A DNA stretch of 64,000 bases from a virus. The notes below the pieces were generated by a model. It saw nothing but the letters and a program-made list of their open reading frames with translations, had not been told where the DNA came from and made no database searches. Made by a program: the position numbers and the translations under genes. This document shows, piece after piece, positions 42,395-44,712 of the stretch (the stretch's first letter is position 1; each line of letters starts with the position of its first letter). The stretch lies in the IMG/VR virus record IMGVR_UViG_3300031237_000002, positions 1,423-65,422 of that record. One strand, 5' to 3'.

Positions 42395-42716
42395 CCATAA
42401 TCGCTGAGTAAACCATAAACAGTAAGCGAGTCATTGTTCATAAGAAACCCACTCAGAACAAGCGAGTCATTATTCATAAGAAACCCATTGCGGACAAGCG
42501 AGCCAAGATATTAAAGAAACCCATGATTAACTAGCGAGTCATCATACCGAAGCAACCCATAATGGCGAAGCGAGCCAACCCATCATAGAAACTCATTTCG
42601 TGAAAGCGAGCCATTGAAGAGAAGAAACCCAAGTCCATTAAGCGAGCCATTTCGTATAAGAAACCCAACTCCATTAAGCGAGCCACCTTCCATGAGAAAC
42701 CCAACAAGGACTAGCG
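42393..42716 (+). ncRNA. TIGR-type dual-repeat guide RNA array, downstream part (9 units of 36 nt)
   Basis: Exact 36-nt period from 42393 to 42681; alternating AGCGAGYCA and AGAAACCCA repeats with 9-nt variable spacers. Confidence 0.95.
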
Positions 42717-42717
42717 C

Positions 42718-44712
42718 ATGATTCACTTAGACTTCGAATCCCGCAGTGTCTGCAATCTAATAACAGACGGCACGTACAAGTACGCGGCACATCCAACCAC
42801 AGACATTAGCTGTTTCTCATGGTGTATCGGGGATGGCCCGGTATCAGTCTGGTATAATTGGGAACCACTACCAGAAGGACTGTTAGCCGCAGTAGAAGCA
42901 GGTTTATTAATTGCGGCATGGAACGCCAACTTTGAACGGCTGATGTGGAACATGGTGTTGATCCGCTATGGCGCACCAGCCTTGCCAATCAACCGTTTCT
43001 ATTGCGTGGCAGCCAATGCCCGCGCCCGTGGCTACCCCGGCAAACTTGAAAAGGCCGCCCGGTTTGCTGGCCTCGGTGTCGATAAAGATATGGAGGGTTA
43101 CAGGTTAATGATGAAGCTGTGCAGGCCACGGCGCATCGAGGAAGACGGCACCATCGTATGGTGGGAAGACTACAACGATCTGATCCGCCAAGGCGAATAC
43201 TGCGCGCAGGATACCGTCGTTGAGCGCGCTATGAGCGTGCTGTTAATGCCGCTCTCTGAACAGGAGCTGGCTGATTACTGGCTGTCGGAAGAGATAAACG
43301 ACAGGGGTATTCTGGTTGATCGTGAACTTGCAACCGCAGCAGTGGTTGGCGCCGAGTCAGAGAAACTAACTTCTGACGATATCATCAAGAAACTTACCGA
43401 TGGTGACGATGATACCGGTCATGGCGCTACGGCGTGCACACAAGTACAGCGTATTTTGAAATGGGTTGAAGAAGAATGGAAGCCTTTGACCGGTCTTAAA
43501 TTAGTCGATGGCGAATGGAAGCAGATGCCTAGTCTAGCCAAGAGTGATGTACTCGATGCGTTACAAGAGGATGATATACCGCCGCACGTTGCCGACGTCC
43601 TTGAACTCCGACTGGAAAACTCTAAGGCGGCTGTATCTAAGTTCGCCGCAATGCTTAATAAGAGCGACGAAGCCGGTTGCGTCAGAGGTTTATTTGTATT
43701 TCATGGGGCTGGACCGGGGCGGTTCACGTCATTCGGTTTACAAGTCCAGAATCTGGTAAGGGAATCAAATCTGGAAGCGATACCAATCCTCAAAAAGTAC
43801 GGCATGAAAGGGCTGGCCATGATGGGCGAGCCGGTCAAGATTCTGGCGCAGATGGTGCGACCTGCATTCATGGCAGCGCCCGGCAAGACATTGTTGGTTG
43901 GTGACTTTTCGCAAATGCAAGTAAGGATTACTGCATGGCTGGCCGGGCAACAGAACCTGTTGCAGTTGTTCCGCGACAACAAGGATGTTTACTGCGCCTT
44001 TGGCTCCATTGCCTTTGGCCGTCCTATCACCAAAGCCGATATCATCGAGCGGTTTGTTTCGAAGGGCTGCATCCTTGGTCTAGGCTTTGGTGGCGCGGAA
44101 GGCGCACTGGCGCGGACGCTTAAGAAAGAAAACATTATCCTGCCATTCAGCGAATTAAAAGAGCACAAGGAAACTTATCGTGAAGTCTACCCGGAAATTA
44201 AACAACTCTGGTACACATTACGAGACGCAACATTACTCGCTATGTTTTCTCGCGGTACAATTGTACCCGTCGGGCCAGTTAGTTATATGTACGATGGTGA
44301 ACATTTGTGGTGTCGTCTGCCGTCTGGACGGCTCATGTGTTACCCCTATGCCAGAGTCGTGCAAGATGATTACGGCGACTGCATCGAATACCGTCGAGGT
44401 AATCGCAGCCCCAAATCAGGAGTGATGGACTGGCCGGTAGAGCGCTTGTGGTATGGCACCTTTACCGAAAACTTGGCGCAAGCCATTGAGTTTGACTTGA
44501 TGATAAGTGCCATGCGCAAGTTGCGCGCCCGCTATGCGGAACGCATGCCAGTACGTATACATGTTCACGACGAGATAGTTCCAGAGGTTTTAATAGAAGA
44601 GTCAGAAGAACTGCTACCAGAATTCCTTGCGCTTATGGCAGAAGGCGAAGAGTGGAGCGAAGGTTTACCAATTGCCGTGGAAGGCCATATTACTCAGAGG
44701 TACGTAAAATGA
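42718..44712 (+). CDS. DNA polymerase, family A, with 3'-5' exonuclease
   Basis: ExoI LDFES, ExoII WNANFE, ExoIII YCAQD; motif A GDFSQMQVR, motif B RFVSKGCILGLGFG, motif C HVHDE. Confidence 0.92.
   Translation: MIHLDFESRSVCNLITDGTYKYAAHPTTDISCFSWCIGDGPVSVWYNWEPLPEGLLAAVEAGLLIAAWNANFERLMWNMVLIRYGAPALPINRFYCVAANARARGYPGKLEKAARFAGLGVDKDMEGYRLMMKLCRPRRIEEDGTIVWWEDYNDLIRQGEYCAQDTVVERAMSVLLMPLSEQELADYWLSEEINDRGILVDRELATAAVVGAESEKLTSDDIIKKLTDGDDDTGHGATACTQVQRILKWVEEEWKPLTGLKLVDGEWKQMPSLAKSDVLDALQEDDIPPHVADVLELRLENSKAAVSKFAAMLNKSDEAGCVRGLFVFHGAGPGRFTSFGLQVQNLVRESNLEAIPILKKYGMKGLAMMGEPVKILAQMVRPAFMAAPGKTLLVGDFSQMQVRITAWLAGQQNLLQLFRDNKDVYCAFGSIAFGRPITKADIIERFVSKGCILGLGFGGAEGALARTLKKENIILPFSELKEHKETYREVYPEIKQLWYTLRDATLLAMFSRGTIVPVGPVSYMYDGEHLWCRLPSGRLMCYPYARVVQDDYGDCIEYRRGNRSPKSGVMDWPVERLWYGTFTENLAQAIEFDLMISAMRKLRARYAERMPVRIHVHDEIVPEVLIEESEELLPEFLALMAEGEEWSEGLPIAVEGHITQRYVK

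What the first reader, a model, noticed from the sequence alone, without database searches (positions are those of the whole stretch)
42681..42720. Last guide spacer doubles as the ribosome-binding site of the DNA polymerase
Seen: spacer B of the last unit is ACAAGGACT. Its AAGGA (42706-42710) lies 7 nt before the polymerase ATG (42718), and the terminal half-repeat AGCG (42713-42716) lies between them. No other SD is available. Inference: processing at the array end, or Tas binding to the last unit, would separate or occlude the polymerase RBS, coupling the guide system to phage replication. Alternatively, the terminal spacer is frozen by its RBS role and is not a real guide.
Basis: partly seen in the sequence, partly recalled or inferred. 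Interest (0 to 1): 0.6.

Follow-up and report, generated by a model that had tools for sequence, protein, structure and literature searches.

The report
Guide RNA targeting rival phage polymerases
The last guide of this phage's RNA-guided nuclease array matches the DNA polymerase gene of related rival phages while the phage's own copy is silently recoded at that site, which points to long-sought natural targets of TIGR-Tas systems; the same few bases probably also serve as the ribosome-binding site of the phage's own polymerase.

Summary
In detail: AAGGA in the last spacer B lies 7 nt before the true polA start, with no better site. But unit 9 is not a frozen pseudo-guide. Read with the published 8+8 pairing rule, it matches the DKDMEG codons of polA in three related phage loci at 15/16. 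The phage's own polA differs at all four synonymous positions, 366 nt downstream. AAGGA is simply AAG-GA(C), Lys-Asp, copied from that target. Seven more end-of-array or satellite guides in this clade show the same pattern (two 16/16 in a TIGR-less, 98%-identical polA); 11/116 guides hit relatives at 15/16 or better versus 0/580 controls. The best reading is that TasH acts as an RNA-programmed free-standing homing endonuclease against rival alleles of neighbouring genes (inferred, not assayed). The RBS role is likely secondary (about 0.6): the motif is weak and absent in relatives, but last spacers of gene-abutting TIGR arrays are SD-enriched (p about 0.004). Maturing guide 9 would cut its SD off polA mRNA; real regulation of replication is unproven (about 0.2). 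The scan earlier noted one TIGR guide matching relatives' gene on other DNA (e1-5349900).

The parts
42681..42716 (+). TIGR unit 9 (last tigRNA), with truncated 3' edge; guide predicted to target rival polA alleles
42686..42694 (+). Spacer A of unit 9 (8 pairing nt plus one); reverse complement of the Met-Glu-Gly codons of rival polA
42704..42712 (+). Spacer B of unit 9; equals the Asp-Lys-Asp codons of rival polA (sense strand); contains AAGGA
42706..42710 (+). AAGGA, probable Shine-Dalgarno site of polA, 7 nt before the ATG
42713..42716 (+). Terminal half edge repeat AGCG; predicted 3' end of guide 9, 1 nt before the ATG
42718..44712 (+). DNA polymerase family A gene (664 aa)
   Evidence: Pfam PF00476 E 1.8e-21; homologs
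43082..43097 (+). Own-allele counterpart of the unit 9 target (DKDMEG, codons 122-127); 4 synonymous mismatches to the guide, predicted resistant
42393..42716 (+). Nine-unit dual-repeat TIGR array (36-nt period); first edge overlaps the tasH stop codon; no terminator after it
41447..42394 (+). tasH (HNH + Nop), 56% identical to SpTasH; processing dyad Y296/H303 matches SpTasH Y289/H296
41329..41441 (+). Three TIGR units plus a full edge repeat upstream of tasH
40337..40372 (+). Satellite single TIGR unit; guide matches rival alleles of the next gene (15/16 in L050, 14/16 in L002)
40405..41046 (+). Conserved 213-aa gene (no Pfam hit; called 'ssb-like' here from position only, unverified)
40533..40548 (+). 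Own-allele counterpart of the satellite guide target (TKQGTW); 4 synonymous mismatches
42692..42721 (+). 9-codon mini-ORF starting in spacer A and overlapping the polA start (ATGA); may be chance

Best explanation
Unit 9 is a genuine TasH guide aimed at the polymerase gene of related phages. Shown: its 8+8 target matches the DKDMEG codons of rival polA alleles, and the phage's own polA is synonymously recoded there; end units of sister arrays do the same for the gene next to them. Inferred: in co-infection TasH cuts the rival allele about 370 bp from the cassette; repair from the TIGR-bearing genome excludes the rival marker and can copy the cassette, as free-standing homing endonucleases do, but with RNA-set specificity. 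AAGGA comes from the Lys-Asp codons of the target. Because the cassette replaced the native polA leader up to the start codon, this AAGGA probably also serves as the polA RBS (about 0.6), a secondary use that may have favoured this guide. Each transcript can then give either mature guide 9 or SD-led polA mRNA; this trade-off is inferred and probably minor.
For: Target matches: 15/16 in polA of L140, L225, L277; 14/16 in L002, L049, L139; own allele 12/16 with all four differences synonymous. Replicates: L002 unit 9212 and L005 unit 1918 match TIGR-less L051 polA 16/16 with own alleles 12/16 (synonymous); window satellite and L002 unit 6994 match the ssb-like gene 15/16; L140 units 3337, 2392 and 5054 likewise. 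11/116 guides hit the 168-kb clade set at 15/16 or better versus 0/580 wrong-geometry or shuffled controls. The geometry and 8-nt spacers came from Faure et al., after a 9+9 search had failed. Wide survey: end units near-match their own flanks 63/368 vs 114/1472 controls (p 2e-7), codon-phased 10/368 vs 0/1472; outside this clade 48/326 vs 115/1304 (p 0.0015); internal units barely. The slot is mobile: L051 polA is 98% identical to L002 polA, lacks TIGR, and similarity begins 5-6 nt before the ATG; L278 has an endonuclease VII gene there. Position-1 mismatches are tolerated and position-5 mismatches block cutting of that strand in SpTasH. SD enrichment of last spacers in abutting arrays: p 0.004 within arrays; none in far-ending arrays or in spacer A.
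Against: No experiment, and no perfect 16/16 target for unit 9 among the relatives sampled. Two TIGR-less or unrelated alleles (L050, L051) also carry 4 mismatches, so recoding at this site is not unique to the owner. The best-matching targets L140 and L225 carry TIGR themselves, so simple rival-killing fits as well as homing. The 11 inner guides of the window have no target in the partial loci held. SpTasH did not process a 5' half-edge, so maturation of a half-edged unit is not assured. AAGGA is absent in L002, L005 and L054, which share the layout. TasR gave no phage defence in E. coli.
Confidence: 0.72

Rival explanations
1. Inter-phage weapon without homing: guide 9 is real and damages or blocks rival genomes at an essential gene, but the cassette is not copied into them.
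For: Same target data; some best targets already carry TIGR (L140, L225); some guides hit rivals' arrays or tas genes; TasR biased plasmid inheritance.
Against: A pure weapon could aim anywhere, yet end guides aim at the gene next to them; the slot is swapped between 98%-identical phages with a boundary at the ATG.
Confidence: 0.15
2. One reading: the layout exists to couple the guide system to replication; TasH binding or cutting of unit 9 represses polA translation, like L7Ae on its k-turn leader.
For: SD lies inside the guide; no promoter or terminator between array and polA on the + strand; processing dyad conserved; SD-enriched terminal spacers in other arrays; L7Ae precedent (PMC5539422).
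Against: The SD is not conserved in three sister loci with the same layout; the sequence is dictated by the target codons; polA abuts whatever lies upstream in TIGR-less relatives too.
Confidence: 0.2
3. Spacers are merely fossil copies of neighbouring sequence captured during array growth, and have since drifted; matches to relatives reflect ancestry, not targeting.
For: Guides resemble adjacent genes; adjacent-unit matches exist.
Against: The guide is split in the A plus reverse-complement-of-B geometry needed for targeting; own-allele differences fall on synonymous sites in nearly all cases while the spacer stays 15-16/16 to rivals; only 7-17% of 16-nt windows between L002 or L005 and L051 differ at 4 sites.
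Confidence: 0.08
4. The terminal spacer is frozen by its RBS role and is not a guide.
For: Truncated 3' edge; both ninth positions deviate from the usual A; degenerate terminal units are shared by L002 and L005.
Against: 15/16 matches to three rival polA loci with self-avoidance; not conserved in relatives; other half-edged units also have targets (window 40337, L002 6994, L140 3337).
Confidence: 0.04

Closest known systems
SpTIGR-TasH of Salicola phage CGphi29 (Faure et al. 2025, PMC12045711; PMC13421893; PDB 9W03 and related)
   Same: 36-nt dual-repeat array with the same edge repeat, HNH+Nop protein 56% identical, Y/H processing dyad, 8+8 pairing.
   Different: SpTIGR ends in a terminator and the next gene has its own SD; here the array ends 1 nt before polA. 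No natural target is reported in the papers read (Faure 2025; Xu 2026 preprint 10.64898/2026.09.09.750476 says targets cannot yet be determined).
Free-standing homing endonucleases of T-even phages (SegE, SegF, SegG, MobE; intronless homing and marker exclusion; PMC2988022)
   Same: Intergenic nuclease cassette between conserved replication genes; predicted cut hundreds of bp away in the rival allele of the neighbouring gene; own allele differs; patchy presence among close relatives.
   Different: Specificity is set by RNA guides, not protein; several neighbouring genes and even rival arrays are targeted by one protein; homing itself is not shown here.
Virus-borne mini-CRISPR arrays against competing viruses (from own knowledge; also named in scan note e1-370586)
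   Same: Small viral guide arrays aimed at related viruses.
   Different: Those borrow host Cas proteins and use single long spacers with PAMs; here the effector is encoded in the array and guides are split.
L7Ae autoregulation through a k-turn in its 5' UTR (Daume et al. 2017, PMC5539422)
   Same: A box C/D-system RNA motif overlapping a translation start could let the binding protein repress translation.
   Different: Shown experimentally and conserved for L7Ae; here unconserved, untested, and the RNA element is a DNA-targeting guide.

Membership tests
Dual-repeat TIGR-TasH | [quoted passage not shown] | tested here: met
   13 units parsed, AG...CCA in both repeats
Dual-repeat TIGR-TasH | Adjacent HNH + Nop protein | tested here: met
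   56% to SpTasH, E 7e-111 to its PDB chains; N51, H60, H64 invariant
Dual-repeat TIGR-TasH | Y/H pre-tigRNA processing dyad | tested here: met
   Y296/H303 align with SpTasH Y289/H296; accessory E292 and K293 are not conserved
Dual-repeat TIGR-TasH | Tandem targeting: spacer A on one strand, spacer B on the other | tested here: met
   Only the A + reverse-complement-B geometry finds targets: 11/116 vs 0/232 for two other geometries; sequence-level only
Dual-repeat TIGR-TasH | Array ends in a truncated edge followed by a terminator (typical) | tested here: not met
   Truncated edge yes, terminator no; polA starts 1 nt later. Described as typical, not obligatory.
Dual-repeat TIGR-TasH | Mature 36-nt RNAs and DNA cleavage | not testable with these tools
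   needs RNA-seq and cleavage assay
Free-standing homing endonuclease | Intergenic nuclease cassette, present or absent among close relatives | tested here: met
   L002/L005 vs L051 (98% polA identity), scattered on the polA tree
Free-standing homing endonuclease | Target in the rival allele of a nearby conserved gene, own allele resistant | tested here: met
   Eight end or satellite guides, by sequence; resistance inferred from mismatches
Free-standing homing endonuclease | Target recognised by the protein alone | tested here: not met
   Specificity is written in the RNA guides: works like one, is not a member
Free-standing homing endonuclease | Over-inheritance and co-conversion in mixed infection | not testable with these tools
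   needs co-infection crosses; uncultured phages
Shine-Dalgarno site | Anti-SD complement 5-10 nt before a true start in an SD-using genome | tested here: met
Shine-Dalgarno site | Conservation or excess over chance | tested here: inconclusive
   p 0.02-0.19 alone; absent in sister loci; class-level enrichment p 0.004

The most novel reading that the evidence does not exclude
TIGR-TasH cassettes are RNA-programmed homing elements: end-of-array guides are acquired against the rival allele of the adjacent gene, the owner carries a synonymously recoded allele, and here the guide also replaces the ribosome-binding site that the insertion removed, so that guide maturation and polymerase translation compete for the same RNA.
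Probability: 0.35. Interest if true: 0.9.

Novelty: new variant of a known kind. Interest (0 to 1): 0.78.

Why it matters
Both main TIGR papers list natural targets, biological role and spacer origin as open. This clade gives concrete guide-target pairs with a positional rule (end guides aim at the neighbouring gene of rivals) and built-in controls (own recoded alleles), which can be tested at once with synthetic DNA in E. coli. It suggests a selfish-mobility or rival-exclusion role instead of host defence, hints at where new units are added, and shows one 8-nt stretch serving as both guide and probable ribosome-binding site.

Tried and rejected
Upstream or alternative polA starts: excluded by the in-frame stop and conserved N-terminus. 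9+9 target search in the own genome: nothing better than 4 mismatches; 7 exact IMG/VR hits were unrelated to each other and to this phage, consistent with chance. Self-targeting with 8+8: chance level in the own genome. SD-hiding hairpin between spacers A and B: only -1.8 kcal/mol; leader fold z -0.47. Promoter or terminator between array and polA: none on the + strand. Conservation of unit 9 in relatives: none; a 7/9 likeness to one L002 spacer is chance (the two aim at different sites). Shared last unit in L054/L140 and L010/L225 sits before different genes, one with its own SD, so terminal conservation does not imply an RBS role. 15/16 hits of the unit 9 target in six distant phage loci (KDMEA peptide) were not followed up and may be chance. 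CsrA-like reading of ACAAGGA (scan note e1-5346295): not tested, unnecessary. No cultured close relative (polA 33% at best); host unknown. The SpTasH structure paper cited for processing was not in the library.

Full report
Setting. The window is most of a 66.7-kb uncultured phage record. The finding lies at the end of a dual-repeat TIGR array: three units at 41329-41436, tasH at 41447-42394, nine units at 42393-42716, and one satellite unit at 40337-40372. The protein is 56% identical to SpTasH of Salicola phage CGphi29 and keeps the Y/H dyad that lets SpTasH process its own guides. The next gene is a family A DNA polymerase.

Observation. The coordinates are right. AAGGA (42706-42710) is in spacer B of unit 9, 7 nt before the ATG at 42718, with the half edge AGCG between. 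The start is fixed by an in-frame stop at 42712 and by homologs that begin the same way. The phage uses SD sites, and this one is weak but in range: 36 of 47 candidate starts are as strong or stronger. Alone it is weak evidence, since 4-19% of internal spacers would score as well. No promoter or terminator was found between array and polA on the + strand.

Relatives. Three independent loci also end their array within a few bases of polA: L002 (2 nt), L005 and L054/L140 (7 nt); in L139 a small ORF follows at 5 nt. None has AAGGA (anti-SD energy -4.5, -4.5, -3.0). In TIGR-less relatives polA overlaps or touches a variable upstream gene, an endonuclease VII in one case. L051 polA is 98% identical to L002 polA yet has no TIGR there, and DNA similarity starts 5-6 nt before the ATG. 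So the tight spacing reflects a swappable slot whose boundary is the polA start.

Is SD in a last spacer more than chance as a class? Among 170 distinct array ends, 23 lie within 7 nt of an ATG opening 60 or more codons. Leaving out the window and near-duplicates, their last spacer B ranks high for anti-SD pairing within its own array (mean rank 0.32, p 0.004; 0.04 with a stricter exact-match score); arrays ending far from genes and spacers A show nothing. Some of the 23 ORF starts may be spurious. Dual use therefore happens, and I put the RBS role here at about 0.6.

The main result. A 9+9 target search failed. Faure et al. define SpTIGR spacers as 8 nt plus a conserved A, so I repeated it with 8+8. 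The unit 9 target is then the codon string of the conserved (D)KDMEG motif of polA. It matches 15/16 in L140, L225 and L277 and 14/16 in L002, L049 and L139. The phage's own polA (43082-43097) encodes DKDMEG but differs at all four synonymous positions, i.e. spacer B positions 2, 5, 8 and spacer A position 3. In SpTasH a position-1 mismatch is tolerated and a position-5 mismatch blocks that strand (shown for spacer A), so L140/L225 alleles should be cut and the own allele spared (inference). AAGGA is the Lys-Asp codon pair of this target. Only 2-9% of possible polA-targeting guides would give an equal SD, so selection for dual use is possible but not proven.

Replication. The last intact units of L002 and L005 match TIGR-less L051 polA 16/16 (WNNVLV and LLDAVE codons), and each owner has four synonymous mismatches. 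The window's satellite and the last satellite unit of L002 match the downstream ssb-like gene of rivals 15/16, with four synonymous own mismatches. Three L140 end units do the same for the ssb-like gene, the upstream gene and tas. Overall 11 of 116 clade guides hit the 168 kb held at 15/16 or better, against 0 of 580 controls. In the wide set, first and last units near-match their own flanks about twice as often as controls (p 2e-7; p 0.0015 without this clade), with codon-phased mismatches 10/368 vs 0/1472; internal units show little. The last unit of the published SpTIGR array matches its own downstream gene at 13/16, which is suggestive only.

Mechanism. Shown: guide-target matches, self-avoidance, positional rule, patchy cassette. 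Inferred: TasH cuts rival alleles next to the cassette during co-infection, and repair excludes rival markers and may copy the cassette, as for T4 Seg and Mob endonucleases, whose cut sites lie hundreds of bp from the gene (PMC2988022). A plain anti-rival weapon fits much of the same data, since some targets already carry TIGR. A cut after 42716 would leave polA with a 1-nt leader and no SD; leaderless translation needs a 5'-phosphorylated AUG (PMC4611024), which metal-independent RNA cleavage would not leave (own knowledge). But SpTasH did not process a 5' half edge, and the 3' case is untested, so guide 9 may instead arise by trimming of decaying mRNA. Other half-edged units also have targets, so such units can evidently work. 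Real control of replication is about 0.2.

Novelty. The system is a known kind. Natural targets are stated as unknown in Faure et al. 2025 and Xu et al. 2026, and library searches found no report of targets or homing; the library lacks many subscription papers. One earlier scan note (e1-5349900, unchecked) saw a TIGR guide matching a gene of relatives on other DNA. Verdict: observation confirmed, interpretation partly supported, and the unit is more interesting as a guide than as an RBS. Interest 0.78.

Noticed in passing
window 40337-40372: Lone TIGR unit before the ssb-like gene; arrays at the same place in L002, L139, L140, L225, L263. Its guide matches rival alleles of that gene.
   Followed up: yes
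L140 3658 and 5198; L263 593: Some guides match rivals' TIGR arrays (15-16/16), at the unit next to them; the owner's copy has altered edge repeats, which may explain degenerate repeats as self-avoidance.
   Followed up: partly
L004 4319 vs 4590 (Salicola phage CGphi29): Last unit of the published SpTIGR array matches the start of its own downstream gene SLPG_00021 at 13/16, two of three differences synonymous.
   Followed up: partly
L005 596-615 vs L051 18-30: The first edge repeat and spacer of the L005 array coincide with the start-codon context of the gene found at that place in TIGR-less L051, suggesting the cassette's left boundary forms at an AGCCA next to a start codon.
   Followed up: no
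window 41433-41449 and 38951-38940 (minus strand): tasH starts 5 nt after a full edge repeat with no clear SD, so processing would leave a 10-nt leader; the same 12-nt start context precedes the helicase gene.
   Followed up: no
window 42392-42397: The tasH stop codon overlaps the first edge repeat of the downstream array; same in L002, L005, L139, L262.
   Followed up: partly
L158, L174, L251, L256, L272, L273 array ends: Unrelated TIGR arrays whose last spacer B supplies a strong SD (-7 to -10.5 kcal/mol) for the next gene, in three cases a tas gene: better test cases for translational coupling than this window.
   Followed up: partly
window 42429-42500 and 42609-42680: Adjacent units share near-identical spacers (units 2/3 spacer A, units 7/8 spacer B), hinting at growth by local duplication.
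   Followed up: no
L140 5414 and L225 7133: The same terminal unit is kept before different downstream genes.
   Followed up: partly
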